Origin: Promethearchaeota archaeon
GTDB lineage: Archaea > Asgardarchaeota > Lokiarchaeia > Sigyniarchaeales > SOKP01
Assembly (NCBI GenBank): GCA_019057865.1
Contig: JAHLWP010000021.1
Location: forward strand, 1-64,000
DNA: 64,000 nucleotides
Reading direction: 5' to 3'
The position numbers and the translations under genes are program-made. Under the pieces are notes generated by a model. That model searched no databases. It was not told the origin of the DNA and saw nothing but the letters and a program-made list of their open reading frames with translations. Shown piece after piece: positions 44,470 through 59,422 of the stretch; the stretch's first letter is position 1; each line of letters opens with the position of its first letter.

Positions 44470-45927
44470 TTATCCCCAAAATGGTTTCCAGCGATTCCAT
44501 ATATCCCATCGCTGTATATTTTTTATGTTATACCAGACTGCTTTTTGTCTATATCTACTTTTTAAGATTTTATAAATTTGGTGGGAGATGTAGCGGGGTC
44601 GCTGCATAAACTTTCTATGAGTTTCTTTTATACGTGCCATTAGTTCACTCAAAGGTATATTAAGAATAGCAGTACCAACTTCCCAACATTCATCCGGGTT
44701 AATTCGCTTTGCATCTACCATCTGATCCCAAATCCAATTTCCGGGAATTATGCCTAAAATATGAAATTGTGGAAAATCAATATCTAATTTAAGTGATAAA
44801 TTAAATGTATCAATTATTTCCTCACGTGTCTCAATTGGCGCACCCACTATAAAATTTGCTAGAATAATATCAATCCCAACTTTTTTCGAATTTTTTATTG
44901 CATCATAGACTTGATTTAGTGTAATCCTTTTATTGTACCAGTCTAAGACTCTTTGTGAGCCACTTTCGACGCCATAACTAATAATCTTGCAGCCCATATG
45001 TTTCATTGCAGTCAGAAGCTCCCTTGAGCTCTGAGTTACCCTCCCCTCAGCCATCCACTTTAAATCTATCTTTTCTTTTCTAATTAAATAAGATAGTTCC
45101 ATTAATCTTTTTTTACTTATAGTAAAGTTATCATCAACCCAATACAAATTTTGATAACCTTGATTCTCGAGAAGAGAAAGTTCTTCTACTATATTTTTAG
45201 GAGATCTTGGGCGCCATCTGCCCCAAAACATAGCGCTTGAGCAAAATGTACATTGAAATGCACAACCTCTTGAAGAAGAAGCAGTGGCAAAATTTCCTAG
45301 CGAAATATCAAGACCTTCTACTTCACTTTTATATTCTACATTTCCTAATAATTTCCTATTTGGAAATGGAAGTGTGTCAATATTTTCTATAAGGGGTCTA
45401 TCTTCATTTCTAATAATTCTACCATTATTTCGATACGACACACCTCTTATATCTTCAAAGCCATGACCTTTTTCAGTTTTTTCAGCAATTTCTAAAAGAG
45501 TGTTTTCCCCTTCTCCTCTAATGCAAGCATCAATGAATGGGTACTTATTTAATATTCTGGTATCATTGAAAGTTGCGTGATAATTCCCAAATAAAATCTT
45601 AACATTCGGATTTATTTCTTCCTTTACTCTTTTAGCAATTTCTGCTGATGTAATTCCAGTTCCTGAGGTGGTTATCGTTGAAAAACCTAAAATATCTGGA
45701 TCTTCGTGTTTTATCCGCTTTAGAGTATCATTAATCGAAGCCCCCCTAGCGAATTGATCATATATAGATACATCAAAATTATTTTCGCTTAGATAAGTAG
45801 CGAGGTATAGTATCCCCATTGGCGGAAATCCATAAAAATCTATTTTTTCTTTGACATACTGTTCGGCATCTTTAACGGAAAAAAATCCTTTTTCAGGTGG
45901 CTTTGGGAAAATTAAAGATACTTTCAA
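44470..45927 (-). CDS. Cobalamin-binding radical SAM enzyme (class B-like)
   Basis: PPMGILYLA, GNYHAT, RGEGE (B12 domain); SSRGCAFQCTFC; VDDNFT, GVESGS. Confidence 0.92.
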   Translation of the reverse strand: MKVSLIFPKPPEKGFFSVKDAEQYVKEKIDFYGFPPMGILYLATYLSENNFDVSIYDQFARGASINDTLKRIKHEDPDILGFSTITTSGTGITSAEIAKRVKEEINPNVKILFGNYHATFNDTRILNKYPFIDACIRGEGENTLLEIAEKTEKGHGFEDIRGVSYRNNGRIIRNEDRPLIENIDTLPFPNRKLLGNVEYKSEVEGLDISLGNFATASSSRGCAFQCTFCSSAMFWGRWRPRSPKNIVEELSLLENQGYQNLYWVDDNFTISKKRLMELSYLIRKEKIDLKWMAEGRVTQSSRELLTAMKHMGCKIISYGVESGSQRVLDWYNKRITLNQVYDAIKNSKKVGIDIILANFIVGAPIETREEIIDTFNLSLKLDIDFPQFHILGIIPGNWIWDQMVDAKRINPDECWEVGTAILNIPLSELMARIKETHRKFMQRPRYISHQIYKILKSRYRQKAVWYNIKNIQRWDIWNRWKPFWG

Positions 45928-46124
45928 AAAATCACTTTAAATTTGAATTAAATTTAATTGTTCTTTTAATTAAAACATCATCATTTCAATTCTAGTTTAA
46001 TTATGTAAGTTAAATAAATCTTAAAAATAAAATCACTTTTAATGTATTTATTAGAAAAGAGATAAAAATTCGTAAAATTAAAACAAATAATATCATATAC
46101 AACCCTGTGAAAATGGTCTATTAA

Positions 46125-47585
46125 ATGAAAATAATTGATAAAAAAATCCAAAAAGTAGCGTTAGTAAATCCCAATTTTATTACAAAAAGCATTACAGATA
46201 AATTTACAATCCCTGCTTTAGGATTAGAATATCTTGCTGCTAATATTTTAGATTTAGCTGAAGTGAAGATAATTAATGGTAAAGTAAGGAATTTAAACCT
46301 CAAGGAAATTATGGAGGAAATTAATGAATTTAACCCAGATATTGTTGGAATTTCATGTTGTTTAACAACAGGAGTTAATTTTGCCTTAGAAATAGCAAAA
46401 GAGTCAAAAAAACTTGGATATTCAATCGTATTAGGGGGGTGGCATCCTAATTTTGCACCTTCTGAAGTTTTAAAATATCCATTTGTAGATATTATTGTCC
46501 GAGGAGAGGGAGAAGTCACCTTTCGGGAATTAATCGAAAACAAAAATCTAGAAAATATAAAAGGAATATCATATAAAAACAATGGGAGTATTATAAACAA
46601 TCCAGATCGCCCATTAATCAAAGATTTAAATAAACTACCATTTCCTGCAAGGGAATTAAGAAATAAAAAGTCTTATTTTCAAATCTTTCAGATGCCTATA
46701 GATGCGATTGAGACATCAAGGGGTTGCCTATTTAAATGCACTTTCTGTAATATTCATCTTTTTTATCGAGGAACCTATAGAACAAAAAGTCCAGAACGGG
46801 TTATTCAAGAGTTAAAAATTATTACAAATGGAAAAAAACATATAAATGTAATGATTGTGGATGATAATTTCACAACAGATATTAAAAGAGTAGAGAAAAT
46901 TTGTGATTTAATAATCAAAGAAGGAATTAAAGTGGATTTAACTTGTCAAAGTCGCATTGATGTTATAAAAAAGAATCCAAATGTAATCAAAAAAATGTCT
47001 AAAGCAGGGTTTTGGTGTTTTTTCCTTGGTATTGAATCATTTAACCAAAAATCTTTAAACAGTATTCAGAAAAGAGTTCAATTACGGGATATTTTTGAAG
47101 CAATTAAAATACTTCATGATAACGATATAGTAATAATTGGCAGTATGTTGGTGGGTTCAAATCTTGATGAGGAAGAGAAAGATACTGATTTAATGATAAA
47201 GGTTGTTAAAAAGTTAGGAATAGATTTTCCGTTATATTCGGTAATGACACCTTTACCAGGCACGAAATTCAGAGATGTATTGATCGAAAAAGATTATCTG
47301 CTATCTCATAATTGGAGTGAATACAATTTTACCACAGCAGTAAATCGATTAAATAAACTTTCAAAGGAAAAGTTAGACCAACTTTTATCTAAGGCATATT
47401 ATTATGGATATTTTCATAGGGGGTGGAAAGATACTTTTATGAGATTATATAGGAAAAAAGGAATTAATTTATTTTTAAATACAAGAAAATTTAGAGCTAT
47501 TAAGAATCTTTTAGGTTTTTTTAGAAGTATTAGAAGAATGAAAAATGAAATAGATTCAATATCCCCTACCATAAAATTTAATTGA
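46125..47585 (+). CDS. Cobalamin-binding radical SAM enzyme (class B-like)
   Basis: PALGLEYLAA, GGWHP, RGEGE; ETSRGCLFKCTFC; VDDNFT, GIES, TPLPGT. Confidence 0.92.
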   Translation: MKIIDKKIQKVALVNPNFITKSITDKFTIPALGLEYLAANILDLAEVKIINGKVRNLNLKEIMEEINEFNPDIVGISCCLTTGVNFALEIAKESKKLGYSIVLGGWHPNFAPSEVLKYPFVDIIVRGEGEVTFRELIENKNLENIKGISYKNNGSIINNPDRPLIKDLNKLPFPARELRNKKSYFQIFQMPIDAIETSRGCLFKCTFCNIHLFYRGTYRTKSPERVIQELKIITNGKKHINVMIVDDNFTTDIKRVEKICDLIIKEGIKVDLTCQSRIDVIKKNPNVIKKMSKAGFWCFFLGIESFNQKSLNSIQKRVQLRDIFEAIKILHDNDIVIIGSMLVGSNLDEEEKDTDLMIKVVKKLGIDFPLYSVMTPLPGTKFRDVLIEKDYLLSHNWSEYNFTTAVNRLNKLSKEKLDQLLSKAYYYGYFHRGWKDTFMRLYRKKGINLFLNTRKFRAIKNLLGFFRSIRRMKNEIDSISPTIKFN

Positions 47586-47652
47586 AATTCCAAATTTTCA
47601 ACAACAATTCCAATCCTTTCTATGAGATAATTCAAAACTACTTACTAATGCA

Positions 47653-48804
47653 ATGTTAAGCATTACACATAAATCGAAAAATCAATCTTTTCAATTGCCA
47701 ATATCAGGATATTTGGGATATACTATAAGTAAATTTTTTCATTTATGTACACCTATTACTTTTCTTCATGAGAGATTTGAAACTATAACATTATTTAATG
47801 ATATCCGTAAATTGAAAATAAATAAACCTATTTACATTACTGGTCTCGCTCGTGCAGGAACAACCATCGTATTGGAAATGTTAAGTAAGCACCCAGATTT
47901 AGCAACACATCAATATAAGAATCTTCTTATACCATATTTCCCTAATTGGTTATATAAACTTACCAATAAGGTTAGGCTTTTTTCAAAACCGACTGAAAGG
48001 ATTCATAAGGATGGTATAATGGTTACGCGTGATAGTCCCGAAGCAGTAGAGGAGATATTCTGGAGAAAATATTTTAAGCACACGAGTACTGAAAAATCTT
48101 CACATATAATAAATGGGAACATAATAAACCCCAAATTTGAGAGATTTTATCCAAATCATATCCGAAAGCTCTTAATTGCCCAAAAGCGTTCTCGTTATTT
48201 AGCAAAAAACAACTACAATATCACTAGATTGGAGTATTTGCTACGAATTTTCCCATCTACCAAATTTTTACTAATTATTCGTAATCCAGTAAATCATATT
48301 GCTTCATTAATTAAACAAACAAAACTTTTCATGAAGATGGAAAATCAAATACCTCTTTTACAAGATTGGTTGAAAATCCTAGGGCACCAGGAATTTGGCC
48401 ATCATAGCATTTGTATAAATGTAAATAACACAGAATCAATTCATAAAATTCGTAAATTGTGGAGCAATAAAAAAACATATGTAAAAGGATGGGCATATTA
48501 TTGGGTGTCCATTTACGATTTTATTGCCGATAGTCTTGAAGCAAATGAAAAACTCAGAAGTGCGACCTTTATAGTTAATTATAATGAATTATGCGAAAAC
48601 CCAGCAGATATTATTGATAGAATACTTGAACATACTGAACTGCCCTTAGATAAATTTCTGAAAGTTAGAGAATATTATATTAATCATTTACATAAACCCA
48701 CCTATTATTCTCCTGACTTTTCTGAACAAGAACTCTCAGATATTTACGAGATTACAAAGGACACTGCTTCTCGATTTGGATTAAAAATTTCTTTAGGCAA
48801 TTAA
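47653..48804 (+). CDS. PAPS-dependent sulfotransferase
   Basis: 5'-PSB loop PIYITGLARAGTT; 3'-PB KFLLIIRNPVNHIASL; YNELCENP. Confidence 0.88.
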   Translation: MLSITHKSKNQSFQLPISGYLGYTISKFFHLCTPITFLHERFETITLFNDIRKLKINKPIYITGLARAGTTIVLEMLSKHPDLATHQYKNLLIPYFPNWLYKLTNKVRLFSKPTERIHKDGIMVTRDSPEAVEEIFWRKYFKHTSTEKSSHIINGNIINPKFERFYPNHIRKLLIAQKRSRYLAKNNYNITRLEYLLRIFPSTKFLLIIRNPVNHIASLIKQTKLFMKMENQIPLLQDWLKILGHQEFGHHSICINVNNTESIHKIRKLWSNKKTYVKGWAYYWVSIYDFIADSLEANEKLRSATFIVNYNELCENPADIIDRILEHTELPLDKFLKVREYYINHLHKPTYYSPDFSEQELSDIYEITKDTASRFGLKISLGN

Positions 48805-49539
48805 CTGTTTTAAAGTTATGAATTCCGCTTTTCTAGCTAGAGATTCCACAATAAAACCACGTAATGTTTCTAAAAATGTATTTCCTGTATGAAGCCAACG
48901 ATCTAGTCTAAATAAAATATTTTTTATTGTTTCAAACTTACTTGCATGCTTACGAATTAAATTTTTCATATTTATTGCTTCACAAGGATGAAAATATAAT
49001 ATAAGTAATTCATTTTTAAAGATCTTCCGTTTTAGAAAAGGATAAGGTAATCTCAAATAGATACTATATTTTGAAGGGTGAAATTCTTGGATTTTTTTGT
49101 TATCTATTTGGTAATGTGGTAATTTCTTGGGTGATACAATCGAGGAATCGTATCTAAATCCTAAATTACTTAATATTTCAAATAAAAATTTTGGTGGTTT
49201 TAAATAAGGAGCTCGAAAACCGATAATCTCTGAATTTTGACAAGTTTCTTCTAGAACCTTTTTATTCTGATAAATTACATCTTGGCATTTAATAAAATCT
49301 AAGAGATTTAATCGTTCATGAGTTAAGCCATGACAAGCAATTTCATGACCTTTTTGCTCGATTTGTCTTATATACTCTGGTAGATGCTCAACGACATTTC
49401 CAGTACAAAAAAAAGTCCCCTTGACATTGAAATTATCTAAGATATCCAATATTTTCAATAATCCAATTTCCACGCCGAAATAGGTATCCAAAACATTAGG
49501 AAGATCCCTTTCAATATCAAAAGTCAGTGCAATCTTCAT
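48793..49539 (-). CDS. Polysaccharide deacetylase (CE4/NodB)
   Basis: TFDIE, TFF, HEIACHGLTH, GFRAPY, YDSS, YFHP. Confidence 0.9.
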   Translation of the reverse strand: MKIALTFDIERDLPNVLDTYFGVEIGLLKILDILDNFNVKGTFFCTGNVVEHLPEYIRQIEQKGHEIACHGLTHERLNLLDFIKCQDVIYQNKKVLEETCQNSEIIGFRAPYLKPPKFLFEILSNLGFRYDSSIVSPKKLPHYQIDNKKIQEFHPSKYSIYLRLPYPFLKRKIFKNELLILYFHPCEAINMKNLIRKHASKFETIKNILFRLDRWLHTGNTFLETLRGFIVESLARKAEFITLKQLIA

Positions 49540-49672: not shown

Positions 49673-50788
49673 ATGCGAGTTTTAATATTAGGTGCTGGGA
49701 TTACTGGGTGCACATTGGCAAGACTGATGAAAGATAAGGATTATCTTGTTTCAATTAAGGAAAAACAAGATCATATTGGAGGATTATGTTATACAAAAAC
49801 AAATCCTAACGGAATTTTATATGAGCCCTATGGTGGACATGCATTTCACACTAAAGATAGTCGTATTAAAAAGTTTGTTCTTAATTTTTCAGAGTTTAAT
49901 AATTACATTCACAGAAAGGGGATTTTTATCAATGGTGTATTGTGGCATTTTCCTCTCAGTAAGAAGACTATTTTTGAGATGGAAAGGAGCGAAAAAATTC
50001 TTAAGGAATTAGAAGAACGACCAACTACTCCTGATTTAACTAATTTTGAAACATTAGCTATTTCTCAATTTGGAAATACTTTATATAGATTATTTATTTA
50101 TAATTACTCCAAGAAAATGTGGGGTGTAGAACCCAAAGAATTAACAACTGAATATATCCAAAATCGTATTACACTGAAAGACTCTAATACTCAGTTATTT
50201 GAAGATAATTTTCAAGGACTACCTGTTAAAGGATATACAAAATTCCTTAGAAATATGATACATGACATCCCCATTGAATTAAATACTAGTGAATTTGACG
50301 AGTCTTTGTATGATCTCATTTTATACTCAGGTCGAATAGATGAACTATTTAAATTTAAATTTGGAATTTTACAATTTAGGTCTTTACGATTTGACTATAA
50401 GGAAAATGATGTTTGGGAAAATGATAATTATGGTTCAATTAACCTCCCTCAACATGCGAAATATATACGAAAAGTAAATTTTAAAATTATGTATCAACAG
50501 AAAATAAATAAATCATGGATCCAATATCAAGAACCGATATCATTCAATAATAATATGCCAATGTATCCAATATATACTAAACAAAATATTGAATTATTTG
50601 ATAGATATCTTATTGAAGCTTGCAAGTCTAACAAAATTATTCCCGTTGGTCGTTTGGGATTATGCAAATATTTAGAAATGGGTCAAGCTATTTCTTTAGC
50701 AATGAATATGATTCTTTTAATAAAAAAATGGAAAAAATTAAGCCCTAAAAATAGATATCTTGAAATTAAGAAGCTATTAAATAATTAA
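49673..50788 (+). CDS. glf: UDP-galactopyranose mutase
   Basis: GAGITG FAD motif, IGGLC, YGGHAFHT, KKMWG, FQGLP..GYT, RSLRF, GRLG. Confidence 0.88.
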   Translation: MRVLILGAGITGCTLARLMKDKDYLVSIKEKQDHIGGLCYTKTNPNGILYEPYGGHAFHTKDSRIKKFVLNFSEFNNYIHRKGIFINGVLWHFPLSKKTIFEMERSEKILKELEERPTTPDLTNFETLAISQFGNTLYRLFIYNYSKKMWGVEPKELTTEYIQNRITLKDSNTQLFEDNFQGLPVKGYTKFLRNMIHDIPIELNTSEFDESLYDLILYSGRIDELFKFKFGILQFRSLRFDYKENDVWENDNYGSINLPQHAKYIRKVNFKIMYQQKINKSWIQYQEPISFNNNMPMYPIYTKQNIELFDRYLIEACKSNKIIPVGRLGLCKYLEMGQAISLAMNMILLIKKWKKLSPKNRYLEIKKLLNN

Positions 50789-50803: not shown

Positions 50804-51574
50804 CTATAATTGTTTCTTCCAATTAATATCTTTTGCTAAATTATAAAAAATGTCTTTTTTTGAATGGTATTGGACAACACGTCCTAAACTACGACGAGTG
50901 CTTAAATATCTTCCACTTGTTAACACTGAAATAAAATTTAGAGTTTTAATTTTACCCTTTTTCATAATTCTACTTAGATATATTAACGAATCTGAGAATA
51001 CCTTGTCAATTCCCATTAAATTTGGCGGTAGTTGCTTAAATCCACCAACTTTAAAAAATATATCTCTTCTAACAATTATATTACACCCTAAAAGTTCAGG
51101 ATATCCAAGTAAAGTTTTAAAAAAATACCATAAGTGCATACTAAAGTTAAGAAAAAAATAGATCGTTATAGTAAATATCTGGGAACCCAAATTAAATGTA
51201 ATGGCTCTTCCATCATAATATTTAACTCTGGCACTACAAGCAAAAAGATTTTTATGTTTCTCAAAGATTCTATAGACTTTTTGTAAGAAATATGGATCTA
51301 TTAACGTATCTGCATCTAAAAATACAAGTAAATCACCAGAAGTTTTAGGTACAACAAAATTTAATTGAGATGACTTTCCTCTTTTTGGTGATATATACAC
51401 TTCTGCAAATTCTTTTGCTAAAGAAACGGTTTTGTCAGAGCTTTGTCCATCAACTACAATAATTTCATAAGGAATGTTGCAATTTTGCCTTTTAACGGCT
51501 GTTAATGCTTTTATTATGTGTGTCTCTTCATTATAGGTGGGAATAATAACTGAAATTTTTGGTTTATAATTCAT
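50804..51574 (-). CDS. Glycosyltransferase family 2
   Basis: ISVIIPTYNEE, VVDGQSSDKT, FLDAD, VGGF, TSGR. Confidence 0.92.
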   Translation of the reverse strand: MNYKPKISVIIPTYNEETHIIKALTAVKRQNCNIPYEIIVVDGQSSDKTVSLAKEFAEVYISPKRGKSSQLNFVVPKTSGDLLVFLDADTLIDPYFLQKVYRIFEKHKNLFACSARVKYYDGRAITFNLGSQIFTITIYFFLNFSMHLWYFFKTLLGYPELLGCNIIVRRDIFFKVGGFKQLPPNLMGIDKVFSDSLIYLSRIMKKGKIKTLNFISVLTSGRYLSTRRSLGRVVQYHSKKDIFYNLAKDINWKKQL

Positions 51575-51685: not shown

Positions 51686-52801
51686 ATGTCTAAAGCTTCC
51701 GGTAAAACGAAATTTTTTACTAAGGGATTCATAATTTCATTTATTTTTTTAATCTTAAGTTCTACAATTATCATTTTATTTATAATAAATAGAATTTTTT
51801 TTTCAATTTCATGGATTGATACAATTTATGATTATATAGCACCACTATTATCAAAAATTTTCTATAAATATAATATCTACGTCTATGGTGGAATTTTAAT
51901 CGCTTTTGTGTTTCTACTTCCATTATTTGTATTAGGATATAACCTAGCAAAAACGAGACAATTAACTGGGTCAATTTTGTATATTTTTAGTTTATTAGGA
52001 TTCGTAATGATTATTTTCATAGCATCTTATTATACCTATTTTAGTATCTTATTTAATCAAGATTTAACTCTAAATACCAGGTTATTGCTATTCTTACTTT
52101 TTTTACCAATTAATTTTACATTGAGTTTAATCTTGTTTCTTGTAAATATAGATTTCATCATTTTTTTTAAGGATTTGGTTAAAGCAAGGAAAATTTGGAA
52201 GCACAAAAGACCTAAATTTGAAATTGAAGTTAAAGGTAAAATAACTAATATCAATATAGAAACGGATGAATTTATTTTCACACCTGTACCAATGTTAATT
52301 ATTGCGAAATATCTTCAAACTAAAGGTTTTTCTGTATCGTGGTTTGTAAGAGGCGCTTTTAATCATTTAATATCTTTAGTTATTACATATTTGACAGGCT
52401 GGCCACGAGCTAGAAATGTATTATTTCGACTTACCGGAATGAAAATAGGTAAAAATTGTCATATTTCTCAAAAAGCAATACCTGATCCACTCTTACCAGA
52501 ATTAATTGAATTTGAAGATGGTAGTGGCTGTGGTATTGGTACAAAATTATTAACCCATAATGCAATGAATATAAAACATGGACGCTTCAGTTTTGGGCCT
52601 ATTAAAATTTGTAAAAATGCAAGAATAGGAGCATACTCACTTGTATTACCTGGAGTTACAATTGGTAAAGGATCGATTATTGGAGCACATTCAGTAGTAG
52701 CAGATGATATTCCACCATATTCTATCGCACATGGTTCACCAGCTAAAGTAGTACGGCGATTAACTGATGATGAAAAAAAGGAAGTAAATAAAAAATATTA
52801 G
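51686..52801 (+). CDS. Membrane-anchored acyltransferase: about 4 N-terminal TMs + left-handed beta-helix (hexapeptide) domain
   Basis: Hydrophobic N-half; GMKIGKNCHI, LLTH, ARIGAYSLVLPGVTIGKGSIIGAHSVVADDIP..SIAHGSPAKV. Confidence 0.85.
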   Translation: MSKASGKTKFFTKGFIISFIFLILSSTIIILFIINRIFFSISWIDTIYDYIAPLLSKIFYKYNIYVYGGILIAFVFLLPLFVLGYNLAKTRQLTGSILYIFSLLGFVMIIFIASYYTYFSILFNQDLTLNTRLLLFLLFLPINFTLSLILFLVNIDFIIFFKDLVKARKIWKHKRPKFEIEVKGKITNINIETDEFIFTPVPMLIIAKYLQTKGFSVSWFVRGAFNHLISLVITYLTGWPRARNVLFRLTGMKIGKNCHISQKAIPDPLLPELIEFEDGSGCGIGTKLLTHNAMNIKHGRFSFGPIKICKNARIGAYSLVLPGVTIGKGSIIGAHSVVADDIPPYSIAHGSPAKVVRRLTDDEKKEVNKKY

Positions 52802-52890: not shown

Positions 52891-54075
52891 ATGGCATCCG
52901 AAATAATGCTTAGTGATATAAGGACTGAAGTAGAAGCAACTTCTAATGATTGTAAACTATATAAACAAATCTGTGAAGAAAAAGAATATGATTTTGATCA
53001 GACAATTAAAGGATCAAATCTTGATGAAATACCTTATGTAAATTGGAATTATTTTAAAGAATCAAATAAAAAATTTCAGGAATTATTACGAATTCCTTAT
53101 AATGAATTATCATATTGGACAATTAGTTCATCTACATCCGGAGATCCAAGTCTAGTAGGAAGAGATGCTGAAGACATTGAAGTATTTAAAAATAATTATC
53201 GAAAAGTATTTGAAGAATATTCAAAAATGCGCTTAATTAAACGCTTAATTTTATTTGCGCCATCAATTGAATTTATGAATAAAATGCCAGGAAGCTGGTT
53301 AGGAAAACGAGGTTTTCTTTTTTATCGAGATATTGCAGATATTTGGAAAAATTATGAGATAGATTATTTATTGAAATTTAAAGTTTGGAAGGTTCTTCTC
53401 TACTTAATTAGTCATTTTAAGGCAAAAGCATTTATCGAAATAAATGGAAAATTGATGGTGAAAAGTCTTAAAGAGGTAGAACACCAGAAAACCCCTACAT
53501 TAATCGCTAATTCAGTCCCTCTAATGTATCAAAATTTTGTAGATTATTACAAGAAACATAAAAAAGGCTTTAATATGCCTGAAACTTTCAGAATTCAGCT
53601 TGGAGGTGGAGGATGGAACGGTATAAAAGGGAGAGTAAAACTTGAGCATAAAATAGATAAAGTGGACTTTATGGAAAAGATGTCTGGTTTTTTCAACATC
53701 CCATATGATAATATTACAGATAATTATGGTGCAACTGAAGTTCCAATTGCTTGTGGTGGTCATTGGAGTAAAAATTATGAGGATTTTCTATTTCATATTG
53801 ATAAAGATGAAGCTTATATAATCATCCGTGATATAGAAAATCTCGAAAGAATTAAAAAAACAAAAGAACCCGGTATAATAGAGGTATTAACCCCTTATGG
53901 TGTTAAATCCTATGCTGGTGTTGCTGTCATGCTTGATGATATAGTTGAAATAGTAGATTTTAACAAATGTGTTGAATGTGGTAGAGAAGGATTAGTATTT
54001 AGAATAACAGGAAGAATGACACCAGAAATTGGAAAAGGATGTAGTTCTTTTACGAATTTGTTCCCTTTTAAATAA
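52891..54075 (+). CDS. LuxE-like acyl-protein synthetase (ANL superfamily), paralogue 1
   Basis: SSSTSGDPS, GGGGWNG, DNYGATE, IIIRD..NLE, DDIV, CVECGREG..FRITGR....GKGCS terminal Cys. Confidence 0.8.
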   Translation: MASEIMLSDIRTEVEATSNDCKLYKQICEEKEYDFDQTIKGSNLDEIPYVNWNYFKESNKKFQELLRIPYNELSYWTISSSTSGDPSLVGRDAEDIEVFKNNYRKVFEEYSKMRLIKRLILFAPSIEFMNKMPGSWLGKRGFLFYRDIADIWKNYEIDYLLKFKVWKVLLYLISHFKAKAFIEINGKLMVKSLKEVEHQKTPTLIANSVPLMYQNFVDYYKKHKKGFNMPETFRIQLGGGGWNGIKGRVKLEHKIDKVDFMEKMSGFFNIPYDNITDNYGATEVPIACGGHWSKNYEDFLFHIDKDEAYIIIRDIENLERIKKTKEPGIIEVLTPYGVKSYAGVAVMLDDIVEIVDFNKCVECGREGLVFRITGRMTPEIGKGCSSFTNLFPFK

Positions 54076-54193: not shown

Positions 54194-55495
54194 TTAGTGA
54201 AGCCAATCTATTATAGAAGAACAACTTCTACCTTGAGCATCCGTTAACCTTCCAATTACTCTAAATGTAGCACCTTCATAACCACATTCTGGACATTTCC
54301 TTTTTGAAATAAGCTCTACAATATCGTCAACTAGAACTGCTTGATTTATGCTACCATTTACACCATAAGGAGTAATTACTTCGAGTAAACCTTCCATACC
54401 ATCATTTACTGGTTCTAACTTATCTAGATCTCTTACTATAATCCTGGCAGTATCAGGGCAATGTAATAAGAAATCTTGGTATTTTTCAGACCAATGTCCT
54501 CCAAAGAGAGTCGGACCCTCTGTAAATGCATAAATATCTGCAATATCTTTCGATTTAATGTTAAAAACTTTTTCATAATTTTCAATAAATTTAACTTTTT
54601 CTACTGCGTCTAACTTTGCTTCACCCTTAACGCCATCCCATCCTCCACCACCGCAACCAACGAAAGCTTTTCCATCAAGATCAAAAAAAATGTTTTCTTT
54701 TAATAATCTTTTCTCAAACATATTATTCATTAAAAGTGGACTCCCACCAAATATAATTTTGCTCACTTCTATTCCTTTCCAATGTCCAGTTTTTAGAATT
54801 GTTTTAACCATTTTCAGCATTTTACTTACATCTAAAATAAAACCCCCTCTTATTGAAAGAGATGAAATTATTGCCCCAATTGTTTTTAAAATTTTTCCTT
54901 TTATCATATATTCCTCATGCCCATAATATTCCCATGGTTTATTCATACATGCTGTGAAGTAGCGTGTTTTTTTAACATGTTCAAATCCTTTAGCATTTTT
55001 TTTCGCCATAAATGACATCATTAAACGATTTGGTGCAAAATTAAAAACAAGACATCTTTTGGGACCAACTTTTAAGTCCTTCCATCTAAAAAACTCTGTA
55101 AAAACTTTAATTGAATTATATTGTATCTGGTCAAAATCCTCTACTGTTCGAGGAACTATTGAGGGATCTCCTGTTGTAGAAGACGAACATGAAAATAATA
55201 CAATTTTATCAATAGGTACTTTTAGAAGTTGTGAGGTTCGACCTTCTGATTTTTTATAAATGTCAGTAGGAGTATATGGGATTGTTTCCAAATTATCGAT
55301 TGTTAAATCCTCTGGAATTGTAAAATCGAACTTCTTACAAAAGTTTTCTTTGTAATAAGTACAATTATTATAGGATAACTTTATTTGATCTAGCAAATCT
55401 TTGCAAAATTTTTCATCTGGGTAAGGAGTTGGTTTAAAATCAAAATATTTTGTCTGTAATTCTTCAGGTAAATAATCATGTGCTTTAAATACCAA
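54194..55495 (-). CDS. LuxE-like acyl-protein synthetase (ANL superfamily), paralogue 2
   Basis: IPYTPTDIYK, SSSTTGDPS, GGGGWDG, DIYAFTE, IIVRD..KLE, DDIV, CPECGYEG.TFRVIGR....GRSCS. Confidence 0.82.
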   Translation of the reverse strand: MVFKAHDYLPEELQTKYFDFKPTPYPDEKFCKDLLDQIKLSYNNCTYYKENFCKKFDFTIPEDLTIDNLETIPYTPTDIYKKSEGRTSQLLKVPIDKIVLFSCSSSTTGDPSIVPRTVEDFDQIQYNSIKVFTEFFRWKDLKVGPKRCLVFNFAPNRLMMSFMAKKNAKGFEHVKKTRYFTACMNKPWEYYGHEEYMIKGKILKTIGAIISSLSIRGGFILDVSKMLKMVKTILKTGHWKGIEVSKIIFGGSPLLMNNMFEKRLLKENIFFDLDGKAFVGCGGGGWDGVKGEAKLDAVEKVKFIENYEKVFNIKSKDIADIYAFTEGPTLFGGHWSEKYQDFLLHCPDTARIIVRDLDKLEPVNDGMEGLLEVITPYGVNGSINQAVLVDDIVELISKRKCPECGYEGATFRVIGRLTDAQGRSCSSIIDWLH

Positions 55496-55597
55496 AAAAA
55501 TGACCTAATTTCGAAATTTTTTGTATTAATTTAAAGAATTACAGTCTAATAATTAAATCTTATCCGATATCTATATTAAAAAAAAGTAGAAAATAAA

Positions 55598-56950
55598 TTA
55601 TTTTGTAGATAAAGCTACTATTTCTGCTTCTTGTCTTTCAAATAACATTGGTGTTTTTTCCCAACTTAAATCTTTAGGAAGTTTAAATTGACGTAAAAAC
55701 ATATAAAGATGAATAAAGCCACTTATTGGAAAAAATAATAAAAGACTGTAATGTTTATCGCAATATTTTCGTATCGCATTGAATATAAATCCAAATTGAA
55801 AGATCAAGCAGAAAAGGCTCCAACTTAGTAAATAAAATTCTCCAATCATAAAATAAAATATTGCAAAACCAATTATAATAGGGATCCACGTATCCAAATT
55901 CGCTATAACCATCATTGTCATATTTCTGGAGATAATTAGTGATTTCCCATTCTTTTCTTCGCTTTTCATTTGCATTAATTTTGGCATATCAAAAATAAAT
56001 CCTGCAAGCCAGCGTGTTCGTTGTTTTACTAAAATCTCCCAAGTATTTGGCACATATTCATAAATTTTTGCCTTGGGCGAAAAGTAAATTTTTACACCAT
56101 CTAAATTTAAAAGCACAGAAAGATATAGATCTTCTGTCATTGAATCTTCATTAAAACCTTCATACTTCAATAAATATTTCGTCCGAACAGCAAAATTTCG
56201 CCCAAATGAATAAGCTGATGACCCTAATCTGTTTTTAATTTCAAATAATAATCCGCCTCCAGAAACAATAGAATAATCAAGAAAGATACCTTTAGTCAAT
56301 TTATTATCTTTCCAATTTTTAACTAAAACAGGACCTATAACTGCATTATACTTATCATCTTGAAATGGTGAGATTAAATGTTTTAATGTATCTGGTTGTA
56401 AAATACAACCTGCATCATAAAGGACAACAATATCATTTTTTACATATTTTAAGCCATAATTCAGGGCTGGAGGTTTTCCCTTTTTAGGAAGATCCTCTGA
56501 TAACACTTCTATATCTATTGTGTTATGCTCTTTTGCAAAATTTCTACAAAATTCTGATGTATCATCTGTTGATCCACTTGTAATTACAATTATTTGGATG
56601 TTTTCTTCAGGATAATTTGACTCAATAATCGATTTTAAAGTTCTTTCTAATAATATTTTTTCATTTTTACAAGCAATTAATATACTTATATTTGTATAGT
56701 AAGGTGTTTTGGTTCGATAACCTTTCCCAAATGACGCTAAGAAATGTATTCCATAAAAAATAACAAATCCTAACAACATTATTAGACCAATTAATGGAAA
56801 TATGAACCACCAGTAAGTTAAAGGGTTAAGAATGAATCTATCAATTGCTCTTTTTACTCCAGATGACCAGAAAGGTGGAAAATATATGTGTAGTAGCACA
56901 AAAACTATTACCCATACTGATCCATATAACAAATATCTTGAGATTTTCAT
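55598..56950 (-). CDS. Membrane GT2, cellulose/hyaluronan synthase-like (D,D,D,QxxRW type)
   Basis: GSTD, GKPPALNYG, YDAG, TEDL, KQRTRWLAG; N- and C-terminal TMs. Confidence 0.9.
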   Translation of the reverse strand: MKISRYLLYGSVWVIVFVLLHIYFPPFWSSGVKRAIDRFILNPLTYWWFIFPLIGLIMLLGFVIFYGIHFLASFGKGYRTKTPYYTNISILIACKNEKILLERTLKSIIESNYPEENIQIIVITSGSTDDTSEFCRNFAKEHNTIDIEVLSEDLPKKGKPPALNYGLKYVKNDIVVLYDAGCILQPDTLKHLISPFQDDKYNAVIGPVLVKNWKDNKLTKGIFLDYSIVSGGGLLFEIKNRLGSSAYSFGRNFAVRTKYLLKYEGFNEDSMTEDLYLSVLLNLDGVKIYFSPKAKIYEYVPNTWEILVKQRTRWLAGFIFDMPKLMQMKSEEKNGKSLIISRNMTMMVIANLDTWIPIIIGFAIFYFMIGEFYLLSWSLFCLIFQFGFIFNAIRKYCDKHYSLLLFFPISGFIHLYMFLRQFKLPKDLSWEKTPMLFERQEAEIVALSTK

Positions 56951-56954
56951 TTTT

Positions 56955-57890
56955 TCATTCTCCTTTATTTTTATCCATTTTTTTTAAATTTTTCCAAATA
57001 TAATTAGCAAAAAGAATCACTGAAAGGGTCATAATAGCTAAAAGACTGATTTGATAAGTCAACATTGACCAAGTTATTATCCACTCGTGCGATGCAGACC
57101 ATATTGCTGTAGCATCGGGATTGATCAAATGTGTTATCAATACCACAAGACTAGAAGTACCATAGAGTGCAAAAAATGTAGTGATTAATAAGATTCGCGT
57201 TATTCTCTCACCAACAAACGGTTTTGTTTCATGTAAACCTAAACCTTCATGTCTTGCTCTCATATACTCATAAATAAATATCAGTAAGATATTGGTCCAA
57301 ACCATCCATGCAAAATCGAATCCATTCGATAAAACCACTAAATTAGTAGGAACTAAACATACCAACATTAATGTATCGCTTACTCTATCAATCACATTAT
57401 CTAACCAAGCACCACTTTTAGATTTTATATGCAATAACCTTGCTATTGCTCCATCAATCCCATCAATAACTCCTGTAAATAGTACTAAAGCAGCAAGAGC
57501 AAAAAACCAAGAGCCATAGCCTAGTTGGTCAGAAAATAAATCTAATGTGTGACCCTTACTAGCCATTATAACACCATAAAAGATGAGAAATGATAAAATT
57601 AAATTCATAAAAGATACCAAATTTGGAGTTAAGCCCCATCTTATAAAGATTTTTGCTCCGTGATATGTTGCAGGCATATAAAGTTTACCAGCGGGATCCT
57701 TTTTCATTTGTGCAAATTGTTCTTCTAACTTATGAGCTTGTCCATGATCATTAAGCCAATCTTTTATGAATTCATCCAAACTCATAAAATCTTGTTTTGG
57801 TTTTTTATTAAAGAGTCCACTAATGAAAATAATTAAAAGAATCCCTAGTAAAACTAGCGGAAATACTATCTCAAATATTAGATTTGTCAT
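56955..57890 (-). CDS. CDP-alcohol phosphatidyltransferase
   Basis: TPNLVS; DGIDGAIARLLHIKSKSGAWLDNVIDRVSD (DxxDGxxAR...GxxxDxxxD); YMRAR; extra N-terminal TM. Confidence 0.92.
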   Translation of the reverse strand: MTNLIFEIVFPLVLLGILLIIFISGLFNKKPKQDFMSLDEFIKDWLNDHGQAHKLEEQFAQMKKDPAGKLYMPATYHGAKIFIRWGLTPNLVSFMNLILSFLIFYGVIMASKGHTLDLFSDQLGYGSWFFALAALVLFTGVIDGIDGAIARLLHIKSKSGAWLDNVIDRVSDTLMLVCLVPTNLVVLSNGFDFAWMVWTNILLIFIYEYMRARHEGLGLHETKPFVGERITRILLITTFFALYGTSSLVVLITHLINPDATAIWSASHEWIITWSMLTYQISLLAIMTLSVILFANYIWKNLKKMDKNKGE

Positions 57891-58072
57891 AATTTTCGCC
57901 TAACTTAATTTTATTCTTTATTGTTCCTATAAATTTGAAATTGGTAATTTAATATAGAGTACAATATATTATTTAAATTTAGTGTTGAATTTATTATATG
58001 ATTAAATGAAAATTTATTATATTCAACTTGTATTTATAATATTAATACTATTGTCTAGGTAGAATAAATATT

Positions 58073-59422
58073 TTGAAGAACCTTGAACCTTTTTTTAACC
58101 CAAAAAGTATCTTAATTGTAGGCGTTTCAAGGAAAGCTTATACTTTTAGTTATACTGTATTGAAAAACCTTTTAGAGATTTTTTATCAAGGCAAACTCTA
58201 CATATTAAACCCAAATGCTAATGAGGTATTAGGTGTTAAATCCTATCATTCTTTAGAAGAATTACCTGAAATTCCAGAACTAGCAGTAATAGTTTTAGGT
58301 ACGAAAATATTAGACATTGTGGAAGAATTAGGGAAGTATGGTGTAAAATATGTAACAATTCAATCTGAATTAAAAACAGGAATTAATGATACTGATTTAA
58401 CATTAAAATTGCATAAAGTCTGTGAAAAATATGGGATAACATATTTAGGACCTTCAATGATAGGAATTATTAACTTTATTGATAACTTTACGACATCAAT
58501 TATTCCTGTTAGACAACATATAATGCGAGAAAATAAGAACATAACAGAGGGTATAGGTTTCATAGCACAATCTGGAGGGTTAGCAGGTGCTCTAGGGTGG
58601 TGGACTCCTTCACAAAAATTACCCATATCAAAAGTTGTACACTTAGGAAAAGGCTTTCACGTTAGTGAACAAGATATTATTGAATTCTTTCTTAATGATA
58701 AAACAGTCAAAGTTATTTCTTTGTTTTTAAGGGAAATTTCGGATGAATTAATAGACGCAGTAAAGAATGTCTCTCTATATAAACCTGTTCTTTTCTTTTA
58801 TGTAGGAAAAGATGAATTAAAAGAAAAAGAATTAGAAAAAGCAGGAGGAATATCAGTATTAAATTATATTGAGCTTTTTGAGATAGCTAAGATATTCTTA
58901 TGGTGTCCGGAGCCTAAGGGTCCCAATTTAGGGATTATTGGACCTAGTTCTGGTGCAATTCATCTAATTGTAAAAGAAATGAGAAAACAACATTTATCTT
59001 TGGCAAAGCCAGATAAAGAATCTCAAGACATAATTATAAATAAAATAGGTGGCTCTACTTGCGCATATGGTAACCCTGTTGATTATTGGCCCCCAGAGAA
59101 ATTTATAGGTATTAAAATCTGTGGTATATATAATACATCTGCCTCTACCTTATTAAAAGACGAACATGTTGATGGATTAATTATTGCCTTGGAATTTTTT
59201 ATTGAAATTGAATTTGATTTTAATATATTTGATAGTATAAGAAGAACAAATCCAGATAAACCAATTATCGCAATTCTTATACAAGCTGAACATGAAGGAG
59301 CCAAACGAGTATTCAAATCTGCTTCTGAGATAAAGATTCCCGTCTTTGAAAATGAAATAGAGCGCGCTGTACGAGGATATAGATTGTTATATGACTATTA
59401 TTCAAAAATAAAAAAGAAATAA
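58073..59422 (+). CDS. ADP-forming acyl-CoA ligase alpha-subunit homologue lacking the phospho-His loop
   Basis: FFNPKSILIVGVS CoA-binding domain, LGPSMIG, IAQSGG, NPVD; the SHTG segment after KPVLF is missing. Confidence 0.8.
   Translation: MKNLEPFFNPKSILIVGVSRKAYTFSYTVLKNLLEIFYQGKLYILNPNANEVLGVKSYHSLEELPEIPELAVIVLGTKILDIVEELGKYGVKYVTIQSELKTGINDTDLTLKLHKVCEKYGITYLGPSMIGIINFIDNFTTSIIPVRQHIMRENKNITEGIGFIAQSGGLAGALGWWTPSQKLPISKVVHLGKGFHVSEQDIIEFFLNDKTVKVISLFLREISDELIDAVKNVSLYKPVLFFYVGKDELKEKELEKAGGISVLNYIELFEIAKIFLWCPEPKGPNLGIIGPSSGAIHLIVKEMRKQHLSLAKPDKESQDIIINKIGGSTCAYGNPVDYWPPEKFIGIKICGIYNTSASTLLKDEHVDGLIIALEFFIEIEFDFNIFDSIRRTNPDKPIIAILIQAEHEGAKRVFKSASEIKIPVFENEIERAVRGYRLLYDYYSKIKKK

What the first reader, a model, noticed from the sequence alone, without database searches (positions are those of the whole stretch)
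44470..59422. Candidate Asgard membrane-lipid/glycolipid tailoring cluster built around twin LuxE-like acyl activators
Seen: twelve contiguous genes encode two B12 radical SAMs, a sulfotransferase, a CE4 deacetylase, Glf, two GT2s, a TM-LbH acyltransferase, two LuxE-like proteins, a CDP-alcohol phosphatidyltransferase and a His-less CoA-binding protein. The CDP-AP and GT2 genes are only 4 nt apart. No flippase, OST or nucleotide-sugar epimerase set typical of N-glycosylation loci is present. Established: CDP-APs attach head groups to CDP-archaeol or CDP-DAG; LuxE activates fatty acids; B12 radical SAMs modify archaeal lipid cores (GrsA/B, Gmm). Inference: one pathway making a phospho-glycolipid that is galactofuranosylated, deacetylated then acylated, sulfated and core-modified. 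It may add fatty-acyl groups to an archaeal lipid, which bears on the lipid divide in eukaryogenesis. I do not know of a described system with this composition, but novelty is unverified.
Basis: partly seen in the sequence, partly recalled or inferred. Interest (0 to 1): 0.9.

Follow-up and report, generated by a model that had tools for sequence, protein, structure and literature searches.

The report
Asgard accessory glycoconjugate/glycolipid biosynthesis island
A Loki-type Asgard archaeon carries a real, co-inherited but optional 11-gene island that most likely builds a decorated amino-sugar phospholipid (or other membrane-anchored glycoconjugate) at the inner face of the membrane; the product is unknown and a link to fatty-acylated "bacterial-like" lipids is not supported.

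Summary
The gene content is confirmed: all twelve ORFs have the stated domains, and the CDP-alcohol transferase and large GT2 genes are 4 nt apart. The unit is eleven genes (44470-57890), not twelve. The His-less CoA-binding gene is a backbone gene, present in 37 of 41 relatives. It lies directly beside L10e in genomes that lack the island.

The island is an insertion/deletion polymorphism. CDP-AP, large GT2 and TM-LbH orthologues occur in the same 12 of 25 genus genomes. LuxE-family genes occur only in those 12.

Diverged versions (26-46% identity) recur in other Loki families and in Hel-type contigs. They keep CDP-AP + QxxRW GT2 + deacetylase + B12 radical SAM, usually with LuxE and/or TM-LbH.

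"Twin LuxE" is not conserved: one, two or no copies occur. All tailoring enzymes are cytoplasmic.

The best reading (0.45) is a membrane-face pathway: phospho-alcohol anchor, HexNAc transfer, de-N-acetylation, re-acylation, then Galf, sulfate, O-acetyl and radical-SAM decoration. A secreted oligo- or polysaccharide remains possible.

Fatty-acyl chemistry and the lipid-divide angle are speculation. This scan has already met the same island family in other Asgard genomes, with similar conclusions. No described system has this composition.

The parts
44470..45927 (-). B12-binding radical SAM 1 (485 aa)
   Evidence: PF02310 + PF04055. Best NCBIfam hits are BchE 188 and HpnJ 164 bits, all far below cut-offs. 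Orthologues at 80-94% in G012, G003, G011, G004 and G024; 39-44% copies lie inside the G026, G027 and L042 clusters.
46125..47585 (+). B12-binding radical SAM 2 (486 aa), divergent from radical SAM 1
   Evidence: PF02310 + PF04055. BchE 185 and HpnR 157 bits, below cut-offs. 74-96% orthologues in seven genus genomes.
47653..48804 (+). PAPS-type sulfotransferase (383 aa), cytoplasmic
   Evidence: PF13469 71 bits. No TM segment. APS kinase is present elsewhere in the genome. Present in all genus versions but at variable positions.
48793..49539 (-). CE4 de-N-acetylase (248 aa), cytoplasmic
   Evidence: PF01522 67 bits. TIGR03006 90 bits and NodB 64 bits, sub-threshold. The motifs TFDIERD, HGLTH and RAPY are present and the first starts at residue 6, so there is no room for a signal peptide. 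36-38% copies occur in the Hel-type L025, L040 and L042 clusters.
49673..50788 (+). UDP-galactopyranose mutase (Glf)
   Evidence: PF03275 134 bits. TIGR00031 240 bits against a cut-off of 304. 71-95% orthologues in genus clusters.
50804..51574 (-). Small soluble GT2 (256 aa), candidate Galf or side-chain transferase
   Evidence: PF00535 99 bits. No TM segment. 36-43% copies sit next to the large GT2 in L025, L040 and L042.
51686..52801 (+). Membrane-anchored LbH acyl/acetyltransferase (about 5 TM + hexapeptide beta-helix)
   Evidence: Hexapep. TM segments in residues 10-167. The LbH domain is closest to galactoside/maltose O-acetyltransferases (3ftt, 1kqa) and to the heptaprenylglyceryl-phosphate O-acetyltransferase model (78 bits against 300). 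It has the same phyletic pattern as CDP-AP and the large GT2. The only look-alike in the ESM Atlas is a Promethearchaeota cluster.
52891..54075 (+). LuxE-like acyl-protein synthetase 1 (394 aa)
   Evidence: PF04443 65 bits. Invariant SSxT..S..R loop, GGGGW, GR hinge and C-terminal Cys. Orthologues: G012 93%, G026 62%, G008/G021/G004 49-52%.
54194..55495 (-). LuxE-like acyl-protein synthetase 2 (433 aa)
   Evidence: PF04443 88 bits. Cys425 aligns with the C-terminal Cys of the GCS motif of LuxE 7xc6. 75-95% orthologues lie next to the large GT2 in seven genus genomes; 52% in Hel-type L025 and 39% in L040.
55598..56950 (-). Membrane GT2 of cellulose-synthase-like fold (450 aa; D179, TED273-274, QRTRW310-314)
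   Evidence: PF13641 120 bits. PgaC_IcaA 109 bits against 422. Catalytic residues are invariant in 22 homologues. AF2 model pLDDT 88; best folds are PcManGT, BcsA and hyaluronan synthase.
56955..57890 (-). Divergent AIPS-like CDP-alcohol phosphotransferase with an ~80-aa N-terminal extension (311 aa)
   Evidence: PF01066 47 bits. AIPS model 70 bits against 180. D143-x2-D146-G-x2-A...G160-x3-D164-x3-D168 is invariant. It is one of 7 CDP-AP paralogues in the genome. The subfamily is tiny: 22 hits at E<=1e-10 among 1.84 billion representatives. It is adjacent to the large GT2 in nearly all loci.
58073..59422 (+). NOT part of the island: His-less ACD-alpha-like CoA-binding protein (backbone gene)
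   Evidence: Found in 37 of 41 relatives, including all cluster-less ones where assembled. It is directly next to L10e in the cluster-less genomes G006 and G002. It is detached from the island in G003, G011, G017, G007, G004 and G024.

Best explanation
The 11 genes at 44470-57890 are one accessory biosynthetic island of Loki/Hel-type Asgard archaea. It assembles and decorates a membrane-anchored amino-sugar glycoconjugate on the cytoplasmic face of the membrane, most likely a glyco-phospholipid. Proposed order, inferred except where noted: (1) The divergent AIPS-like CDP-alcohol phosphotransferase uses a CDP-alcohol to form a phosphodiester anchor or head group. The default donor is CDP-archaeol, since the island has no cytidylyltransferase. 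The acceptor may be inositol phosphate, which the genome can make. (2) The adjacent membrane GT2 (catalytic D / TED / QRTRW set shown intact) transfers one or a few HexNAc residues. (3) The cytoplasmic CE4 enzyme removes the N-acetyl group. (4) A LuxE-type enzyme adenylates a carboxylic acid, probably loads it on its invariant C-terminal Cys (residue conservation shown, chemistry inferred), and the acyl group goes to the freed amine or a hydroxyl. (5) The membrane-anchored LbH enzyme O-acetylates or O-acylates. (6) Glf plus the small GT2 add galactofuranose. (7) The sulfotransferase adds sulfate from PAPS. (8) The two B12 radical SAM enzymes C-methylate or otherwise modify an unactivated carbon of the sugar, acyl or lipid part. 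Shown: the module is co-inherited, optional, and conserved in its core across deep divergence. Not shown: the product.
For: Domains confirmed. Empty site: in cluster-less G006 and G002 the order is SDR-rSAM377-L10e-CoAb-hyp417, so the island sits exactly between L10e and CoAb in this genome. Synteny holds in 11 other genus genomes, in either orientation and at two insertion points. Phyletic pattern: CDP-AP, large GT2 and TM-LbH orthologues occur in the same 12 of 25 genus genomes and in G026, G027 and G029. Any LuxE-family gene occurs in those same 12 genus genomes and in none of the other 13. Deep conservation of the core: Hel-type L025 has LuxE, B12 rSAM, CE4, CDP-AP, large GT2 and small GT2. 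L040 has the same set plus extra radical SAMs. L042 has TM-LbH, B12 rSAM, CE4, small GT2, large GT2 and CDP-AP. L044/G026 have CDP-AP, large GT2, LuxE and a LuxC-like gene. An analogous trio occurs with non-homologous parts: a CDP-AP of the same subfamily with an HpnB/CruG-like lipid GT2 and a PIG-L/BshB1-like deacetylase. Topology: CE4, sulfotransferase, Glf, small GT2, both LuxE and both radical SAMs have no TM segment or signal peptide, whereas CDP-AP, large GT2 and TM-LbH are polytopic. This fits lipid-linked assembly at the inner leaflet rather than post-export polymer tailoring. The CDP-AP motif is intact and its nearest models are archaetidylinositol-phosphate and PIP synthases. MIPS and APS kinase are present in the genome. 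Established analogies for 'GlcNAc on, acetyl off, new acyl on': the GPI steps PIGA, PIGL and PIGW (PMC7125958), and lipid A, Nod factor and mycothiol (own knowledge).
Against: No experiment or lipid-specific signature ties the island to lipids. The large GT2's nearest characterised relatives by sequence and fold are polymer synthases (PgaC, BcsA, HAS) and an N-glycan mannosyltransferase. The CDP-AP is far below the AIPS cut-off (70 against 180), so donor and acceptor are unknown. LuxE is missing from some versions (G024, and L042 within +/-10 kb). One close LuxE2 homologue stands alone in a Hel-type contig. Some distant CDP-AP relatives stand without a GT2 (L039, L043). The genes lie in at least seven transcription units on both strands. 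LuxE homologues in bacteria sit in flagellin glycan islands, not lipid loci (PMC7874193, PMC4875605). The radical SAMs match no named lipid enzyme model.
Confidence: 0.45

Rival explanations
1. Surface or secreted polysaccharide or oligosaccharide island. The large GT2 would be a processive PNAG-, chitin- or cellulose-type synthase-exporter. CE4, sulfotransferase, Glf/GT2, LbH and LuxE would tailor the polymer or its precursor. The CDP-AP would add a phospho-alcohol substituent or a lipid primer to the glycan.
For: PgaC_IcaA is the best near-full-length NCBIfam match (109 bits, residues 49-401). TED and QRTRW are invariant. The fold matches BcsA and hyaluronan synthase over about 470-500 columns. 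GT2 + CE4 is the PNAG logic. LuxE, O-acetyltransferase and sulfotransferase genes are common in bacterial glycan islands (PMC7874193, PMC4875605). The patchy strain-level distribution is typical of surface-glycan islands.
Against: All tailoring enzymes are cytoplasmic, and the CE4 catalytic motif starts at residue 6. Synthase-dependent polymers are deacetylated or modified after export. There is no PgaD/IcaD-like, export, polymerase or flippase gene in the island. The invariant partner is a phospholipid-type CDP-AP. The best fold hit, PcManGT, is a non-polymerising enzyme with the same minimal fold.
Confidence: 0.25
2. Nod-factor-like lipo-oligosaccharide. A short HexNAc oligomer (NodC-like) would be de-N-acetylated (NodB-like), N-acylated through LuxE, O-acetylated (NodL-like LbH) and sulfated (NodH/NoeE-like), giving a diffusible or membrane-associated signal or surfactant.
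For: There is a one-to-one functional parallel. Sub-threshold NodC (44 bits), NodB (64 bits) and NoeE (27 bits) hits occur. The LbH is of the LacA/NodL acetyltransferase type. All steps are cytoplasmic, as in Nod factor synthesis.
Against: All Nod models are far below their cut-offs. The Pfam scans of the island's ORFs show no NodA-type acyltransferase or NodIJ-type exporter. The scheme gives no role to the invariant CDP-AP or the B12 radical SAMs.
Confidence: 0.1
3. There is no single pathway. The stretch would be a variable hot spot next to L10e where unrelated accessory genes (radical SAM, glycan, lipid) accumulate.
For: The segment between TM-LbH and LuxE2 is highly variable. G003 has an alpha/beta-hydrolase, a radical SAM and a GT2 there. 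G004 has U32, SCP2, an ABBA prenyltransferase and four radical SAMs. The island sits at two different insertion points and in both orientations. Its genes lie on both strands.
Against: The same core set recurs at 26-46% identity in other families and in Hel-type contigs with different flanks. There is strict phyletic co-occurrence within the genus.
Confidence: 0.08

Closest known systems
Early GPI-anchor / GlcN-phosphatidylinositol pathway (PI synthase, PIGA, PIGL, PIGW) and the mycobacterial PIM early operon
   Same: Same order of chemistry: a CDP-alcohol-type phospholipid synthase, then GlcNAc transfer, de-N-acetylation and acylation by a polytopic acyltransferase, starting on the cytoplasmic face (PMC7125958). 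The CDP-AP here is nearest to AIPS and PIP synthases. A distant relative locus even uses a PIG-L-family deacetylase.
   Different: The enzymes are not homologous to the GPI ones. Here there is a GT2 instead of GT4 PIGA, CE4 instead of PIG-L (no PIG-L in this genome), and LbH/LuxE instead of PIGW. There are no mannosyltransferases, no EtN-P transferases and no transamidase. The acceptor alcohol is unknown.
Rhizobial Nod-factor pathway (NodC, NodB, NodA, NodH/NoeE, NodL)
   Same: A QxxRW GT2, a cytoplasmic CE4 deacetylase, re-acylation of the freed amine, a LacA-type LbH O-acetyltransferase and a PAPS sulfotransferase.
   Different: All matches are sub-threshold. The Pfam scans show no NodA or NodIJ. 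A LuxE-type activator, a CDP-AP, Glf and B12 radical SAMs are added.
PNAG synthase systems (PgaCD/PgaB, IcaAD/IcaB)
   Same: The best NCBIfam model for the large GT2 is PgaC_IcaA. It has 2 N-terminal and 3-4 C-terminal TM helices, and a GT2 plus CE4 pairing.
   Different: 109 bits against a cut-off of 422. The CE4 is cytoplasmic rather than exported. There is no PgaD/IcaD or PgaA. A CDP-AP is the fixed partner.
LuxC-LuxE fatty-acid reductase (PDB 7xc6) and LuxE/LuxC genes of bacterial flagellin glycosylation islands
   Same: Match to the PF04443 family. The adenylation loop and the C-terminal Cys, which aligns with the Cys of the GCS motif of 7xc6 LuxE, are conserved. In family f3 (G026/L044) the LuxE next to the large GT2 is followed by a LuxC-like gene. 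Bacterial homologues sit in glycan-tailoring islands (PMC7874193, PMC4875605).
   Different: There is no LuxC anywhere in this genome or genus. The scores of 21-37 bits are far below the LuxE equivalog cut-off of 550. The acid substrate is unknown.
Hopanoid side-chain pathway HpnI (GT2), HpnK (deacetylase), HpnJ (B12 radical SAM)
   Same: A lipid-linked GlcNAc is added by a GT2, deacetylated, and then rearranged by a B12 radical SAM. Radical SAM 1 and 2 hit HpnJ/HpnR at 148-164 bits and the large GT2 hits HpnB/HpnI weakly.
   Different: All scores are far below cut-offs. The deacetylase is of another family. There is no hopanoid synthesis context.

Membership tests
LuxE acyl-protein synthetase (PF04443 / NF052244) | Pfam family match above the gathering score | tested here: met
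   65.2 and 87.7 bits against 24.9.
LuxE acyl-protein synthetase (PF04443 / NF052244) | Equivalog-level match (long-chain-fatty-acid--protein ligase) | tested here: not met
   21.4 and 36.9 bits against a cut-off of 550; 28 bits to PDB 7xc6 LuxE.
LuxE acyl-protein synthetase (PF04443 / NF052244) | Adenylation loop and C-terminal acyl-accepting cysteine | tested here: met
   SS-T--S---R loop, GGGGW, GR hinge and Cys425 are invariant in 13 homologues. Cys425 aligns with the Cys of the GCS motif of 7xc6. That this Cys is the acylation site in LuxE is from my own knowledge.
LuxE acyl-protein synthetase (PF04443 / NF052244) | Partner LuxC acyl-protein reductase | tested here: not met
   No PF05893 match in this 99.7%-complete genome, and none in 24 genus relatives. 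A LuxC-like gene follows LuxE in G026/L044.
LuxE acyl-protein synthetase (PF04443 / NF052244) | Fatty acid as substrate | not testable with these tools
   Needs an ATP-PPi exchange or acylation assay.
CDP-alcohol phosphatidyltransferase (PF01066); archaetidylinositol-phosphate synthase (NF040950) | D-x2-DG-x2-AR...G-x3-D-x3-D catalytic motif | tested here: met
   DGIDGAIAR...GAWLDNVID. D143, D146, G147, A150, G160, D164 and D168 are invariant in 20 sequences.
CDP-alcohol phosphatidyltransferase (PF01066); archaetidylinositol-phosphate synthase (NF040950) | AIPS equivalog score | tested here: not met
   70 bits against 180. Three other paralogues in the genome score 135-157.
CDP-alcohol phosphatidyltransferase (PF01066); archaetidylinositol-phosphate synthase (NF040950) | CDP-archaeol donor and inositol-phosphate acceptor | not testable with these tools
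   MIPS genes are present and there is no cytidylyltransferase in the island. This is circumstantial only.
PgaC/IcaA poly-beta-1,6-GlcNAc synthase (TIGR03937) | Equivalog score | tested here: not met
   108.7 bits against 422.3.
PgaC/IcaA poly-beta-1,6-GlcNAc synthase (TIGR03937) | Processive-GT2 catalytic set (D, D, TED, QxxRW) and cellulose-synthase-like membrane fold | tested here: met
   D179, E273-D274 and Q310-R311-x-R313-W314 are invariant. Foldseek hits to BcsA, HAS and PcManGT at E 1e-15 to 1e-11.
PgaC/IcaA poly-beta-1,6-GlcNAc synthase (TIGR03937) | Extracytoplasmic deacetylase and small membrane partner (PgaB/IcaB, PgaD/IcaD) | tested here: not met
   The CE4 has no signal peptide or TM segment. 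There is no small membrane ORF in the island.
Nod-factor pathway | NodC, NodB and NoeE equivalog scores; NodA acyltransferase | tested here: not met
   NodC 44 against 550, NodB 64 against 240, NoeE 27 against 500. No NodA-type domain among the island's ORFs.
Archaeal N-glycosylation (Agl) locus | AglB/STT3, flippase or dolichol-phosphate priming GT in the locus | tested here: not met
   The only STT3 is on contig C60. None lies in 44470-59422.
Archaeal lipid-core B12 radical SAMs (Grs, Gmm, GDGT methylases) | Specific homology to Grs or Gmm | not tested
   No reference sequences or models were at hand. Only generic class-B matches were seen, with the named lipid model TIGR04072 at 80-90 bits against 360.

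The most novel reading that the evidence does not exclude
Island-bearing Lokiarchaeia would make a GPI-, lipid-A- or Nod-factor-like aminoglycolipid. This would be a hexosamine on a phospho-(inositol?)-archaeol anchor whose amine is re-acylated by a self-acylating LuxE-type synthetase, then furanosylated, sulfated, O-acetylated and C-methylated. It would be the first amide- or ester-linked acyl chain on an archaeal ether lipid. It would also be a GPI-like core assembled by enzymes not homologous to the eukaryotic ones.
Probability: 0.15. Interest if true: 0.85.

Novelty: new variant of a known kind. Interest (0 to 1): 0.55.

Why it matters
Polar-lipid and envelope chemistry of Asgard archaea is almost unknown. 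It is also central to debates on how the eukaryotic membrane arose.

This island is a concrete, lineage-restricted and experimentally tractable gene set. It has three membrane enzymes plus soluble tailoring enzymes, and it predicts a specific class of molecule: a de-N-acetylated, re-acylated, sulfated, Galf-bearing phospho-glycoconjugate.

The island is present in only about half of one genus, so paired strains or MAG-resolved lipidomics could test it directly.

It also offers two enzymological novelties. One is LuxE-type acyl-protein synthetases that work without LuxC. The other is a membrane-anchored LbH transferase known only from Asgard archaea.

It does not at present bear on the lipid divide. 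No fatty-acid chemistry is shown, and the enzymes are analogous, not homologous, to eukaryotic GPI enzymes.

Tried and rejected
Complex prediction of large GT2 + CDP-AP: no verdict, so it is not used as evidence either way.

Expression: no RNA holder is listed for the locus among public runs.

Literature: searches for LuxE with Asgard, for acyl-protein synthetase in archaea, for Asgard with CDP-alcohol transferases, and for glucosaminyl archaetidylinositol found no description of this cluster. 'LuxE' mostly matched 'Luxembourg'.

ESM Atlas by features (LuxE2) and by shape (TM-LbH) returned only their own Promethearchaeota clusters.

The homologue search with the large GT2 was saturated by close Loki orthologues and gave no distant named relatives.

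The idea that the CoA-binding protein feeds acyl-CoA to the island was rejected on phyletic and synteny grounds.

The idea that TM-LbH is a Pls/PosA-like condensation unit rests on a 45-bit hit to the LbH part only. It was dropped in favour of a LacA/NodL-type acetyltransferase.

L041's GT2 is not an orthologue of the large GT2, so that locus is used only as an analogy.

Full report
OBSERVATION. Their domain content is as described:
- Two B12-binding radical SAM proteins.
- A Sulfotransfer_3 protein.
- A CE4 polysaccharide deacetylase.
- A UDP-galactopyranose mutase.
- A 256-aa soluble GT2.
- A protein with about five N-terminal TM helices and a C-terminal hexapeptide beta-helix.
- Two LuxE-family (PF04443) proteins, tail to tail.
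- A 450-aa membrane GT2.
- A CDP-alcohol phosphotransferase, 4 nt upstream of the 450-aa GT2.
- An ACD-alpha-like CoA-binding protein whose phosphohistidine loop falls in an alignment gap.

No OST, flippase or epimerase lies in the stretch. The only STT3 is on another contig. Names attached to close homologues place the organism among Promethearchaeota/Lokiarchaeia.

WHAT THE UNIT IS. Comparison with 40 relatives shows an eleven-gene accessory island, not a twelve-gene cluster. In two cluster-less genomes of the same genus the order is SDR - radical SAM (MSMEG_0568 type) - L10e - CoA-binding protein - hyp417. These are G006 (single contig) and G002 (100% complete), and in both L10e and the CoA-binding gene are neighbours. 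In this window the same genes flank 44470-57890. The CoA-binding gene occurs in 37 of 41 genomes, with or without the island. In G003, G011, G017, G007, G004 and G024 the island lies on the other side of L10e/rSAM377, detached from the CoA-binding gene. That gene is therefore backbone, not part of the island.

CO-INHERITANCE. Orthologues (69-94% identity) of the CDP-AP, the large GT2 and the TM-LbH protein occur in exactly the same 11 of 24 genus relatives. Copies at 30-46% identity occur in G026, G027 and G029 of two other families. None were found in the 11 genomes of family f2. Any LuxE-family gene is found in those same 11 genus genomes plus this one, and in none of the other 13. These genomes are kin, so the counts are not independent. 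Even so, a patchy pattern inside one genus that four genes share is strong evidence for one module.

Within the genus two blocks are syntenic: rSAM1-rSAM2-(Sulfo)-CE4-Glf-GT2s-TM-LbH and LuxE2-GT2L-CDP-AP. A variable segment lies between them:
- In G003 it holds an alpha/beta-hydrolase, a radical SAM and a GT2.
- In G004 it holds U32, SCP2, an ABBA prenyltransferase and four radical SAMs.

'Twin LuxE' is not a conserved feature. Seven genus relatives have the LuxE2 type at the CDP-AP/GT2 block; of these, G012 and G004 also carry a LuxE1-type copy, as this genome does. G008 and G021 have only the LuxE1 type. G024 has none in the island.

DEEP CONSERVATION. The CDP-AP belongs to a very small subfamily with an ~80-residue N-terminal extension. 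Among 1.84 billion representative proteins only 22 score E<=1e-10, and about ten of these are full length. Those that carry a name are Asgard. Their contexts repeat the core:
- L044/G026: CDP-AP - GT2L (46%) - small ORF - LuxE - LuxC-like.
- L040: GT2L, GT2s, CE4, four radical SAMs, CDP-AP and LuxE.
- L042: TM-LbH, B12 radical SAM (39% to rSAM1), CE4, GT2s, GT2L and CDP-AP.
- Hel-type contig L025: LuxE2 (52%), B12 radical SAM, CE4, CDP-AP, GT2L and GT2s.

A more distant member (L041) pairs the CDP-AP with an HpnB/CruG-like, lipid-type GT2 and a PIG-L/BshB1-like deacetylase. This is the same logic with different parts. There are exceptions. One LuxE2 homologue stands alone, and two CDP-AP relatives lack a GT2 neighbour.

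PROTEIN-LEVEL READING.
- CDP-AP: the catalytic motif is intact and invariant. Its best models are archaetidylinositol-phosphate and PIP synthases, but at 70 bits against a cut-off of 180. The genome has six other CDP-AP paralogues, three of them near-canonical AIPS-like, so this one is supernumerary.
- Large GT2: D179, TED and QRTRW are invariant. The AF2 model (pLDDT 88) has the cellulose-synthase-like membrane fold. Its nearest structures are PcManGT, BcsA and hyaluronan synthases. This fits either a processive synthase or a single-addition enzyme.
- CE4: the TFDIERD, HGLTH and RAPY motifs are present. The first starts at residue 6, so the enzyme is cytoplasmic.
- Sulfotransferase, Glf, small GT2, LuxE1/2 and both radical SAMs are also soluble. 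APS kinase and two MIPS genes exist elsewhere in the genome.
- LuxE1/2: the adenylation loop, the GR hinge and a C-terminal Cys are conserved. That Cys aligns with the Cys of the GCS motif of LuxE 7xc6. This genus has no LuxC, and the scores are far below the LuxE equivalog cut-off. These proteins are therefore probably self-acylating acid activators of unknown specificity.
- TM-LbH: the LbH domain is of the galactoside/maltose O-acetyltransferase type. The simplest role is a membrane-anchored O-acetyltransferase. The whole architecture is seen only in Promethearchaeota.
- Radical SAMs: these are generic class-B enzymes. Class-B enzymes do modify archaeal lipid tails (bioRxiv 10.1101/2025.10.20.683597; PMC11214058), but they equally modify sugars and other metabolites.

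MECHANISM. The best-supported scheme is a membrane-face assembly line:
1. A phospho-alcohol anchor or head group is made by the CDP-AP.
2. HexNAc is transferred by the adjacent GT2.
3. The cytoplasmic CE4 removes the N-acetyl group.
4. A LuxE-type enzyme mediates re-acylation.
5. O-acetylation, Galf addition, sulfation and radical-SAM modification follow.

The order mirrors GPI early steps (PMC7125958), lipid A, Nod factors and mycothiol (own knowledge). I prefer a glyco-phospholipid product (0.45) for three reasons. The fixed partner of the GT2 is a phospholipid-type transferase. The island has no cytidylyltransferase for a soluble CDP-alcohol. All tailoring is cytoplasmic, and there is no export or polymerisation gene.

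A PNAG-like or other surface glycan (0.25) and a Nod-factor-like lipo-oligosaccharide (0.1) are not excluded. The GT2's characterised relatives are polymer synthases, and bacterial LuxE homologues sit in glycan islands (PMC7874193, PMC4875605). A mere hot spot of unrelated genes (0.08) is contradicted by the conserved core.

COMPARISON AND NOVELTY. Each enzyme belongs to a known superfamily, but none reaches an equivalog threshold. No described system combines a CDP-AP, a QxxRW GT2, a deacetylase, a LuxC-less LuxE, a TM-LbH and B12 radical SAMs. Literature searches found no description.

This scan has already flagged the same island family in other Asgard genomes, and follow-up agents reached similar readings. 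Those are not independent evidence. I class it as a new variant of a known kind (a glycoconjugate/glycolipid biosynthetic island). It is of moderate to high interest because it is Asgard-restricted and testable. The claim that it adds fatty acyl groups to archaeal lipids, and so bears on the lipid divide, is not supported by anything found here.

LIMITS. There are no expression data. The complex prediction gave no verdict. Substrate identities are all inferred.

Noticed in passing
window 58073-59422: ACD-alpha-like CoA-binding protein lacking the phosphohistidine loop; the SHTGS region of 4xyl falls in an alignment gap. It is near-universal in the order (37 of 41 genomes) and always lies near L10e, so it is a conserved backbone protein of unknown, probably non-ligase, role.
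   Followed up: partly
L018 7205-16900 (G004:C109): In G004 the variable segment of the island holds a U32-family protein, an SCP2 protein, an ABBA aromatic prenyltransferase (PTase_Orf2, 179 bits), two B12 radical SAMs and two SPASM radical SAMs. This looks like a prenylated-aromatic (quinone-like?) tailoring set inserted into the island.
   Followed up: no
L044 14042-15274; G026:C133:82131-83363; also G027, G029, G035, G037, G038: LuxC-like reductase genes lie directly beside LuxE-like genes in other Lokiarchaeia families. In G026/L044 the pair lies inside the CDP-AP/GT2 cluster. This genus has LuxE-like genes but no LuxC.
   Followed up: partly
G000:C9:78588-80962: A 485-aa fused protein with a C-terminal CDP-AP domain (IPCT/DIPPS-like, 55 bits) is followed immediately by a myo-inositol-1-phosphate synthase. 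This is a CDP-inositol-type module separate from the island.
   Followed up: no
G000:C29:13222-14397 (L003 922-2097): A third LuxE paralogue (37% identity to LuxE2) lies outside the island, next to a pyridine-nucleotide-disulfide oxidoreductase gene on an identical ENA contig.
   Followed up: partly
window 41677-42810: An MSMEG_0568-family radical SAM (272 bits against a cut-off of 304) is conserved in the backbone next to L10e in all relatives examined. It is not part of the island.
   Followed up: no
window 33745-36786 and 32808-33704: A split B12 acyl-CoA mutase operon (large subunit, B12 subunit, MeaB) lies next to a YdjC-like (HpnK-family) carbohydrate deacetylase homologue, 11 kb upstream of the island.
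   Followed up: no
window 62373-62966: A small Roc/Arf/Ras-like GTPase (197 aa) lies in the conserved flank; it is also present beside hyp417 in G002.
   Followed up: no
A1 alignment, column of R151 in the CDP-AP: In the 38-41% identity branch of the CDP-AP subfamily (L027, P0247, P0248, P0249) the Arg of the DG-x2-AR signature is replaced by Thr (P0250, at 31%, has Tyr), while all Asp residues are kept.
   Followed up: no
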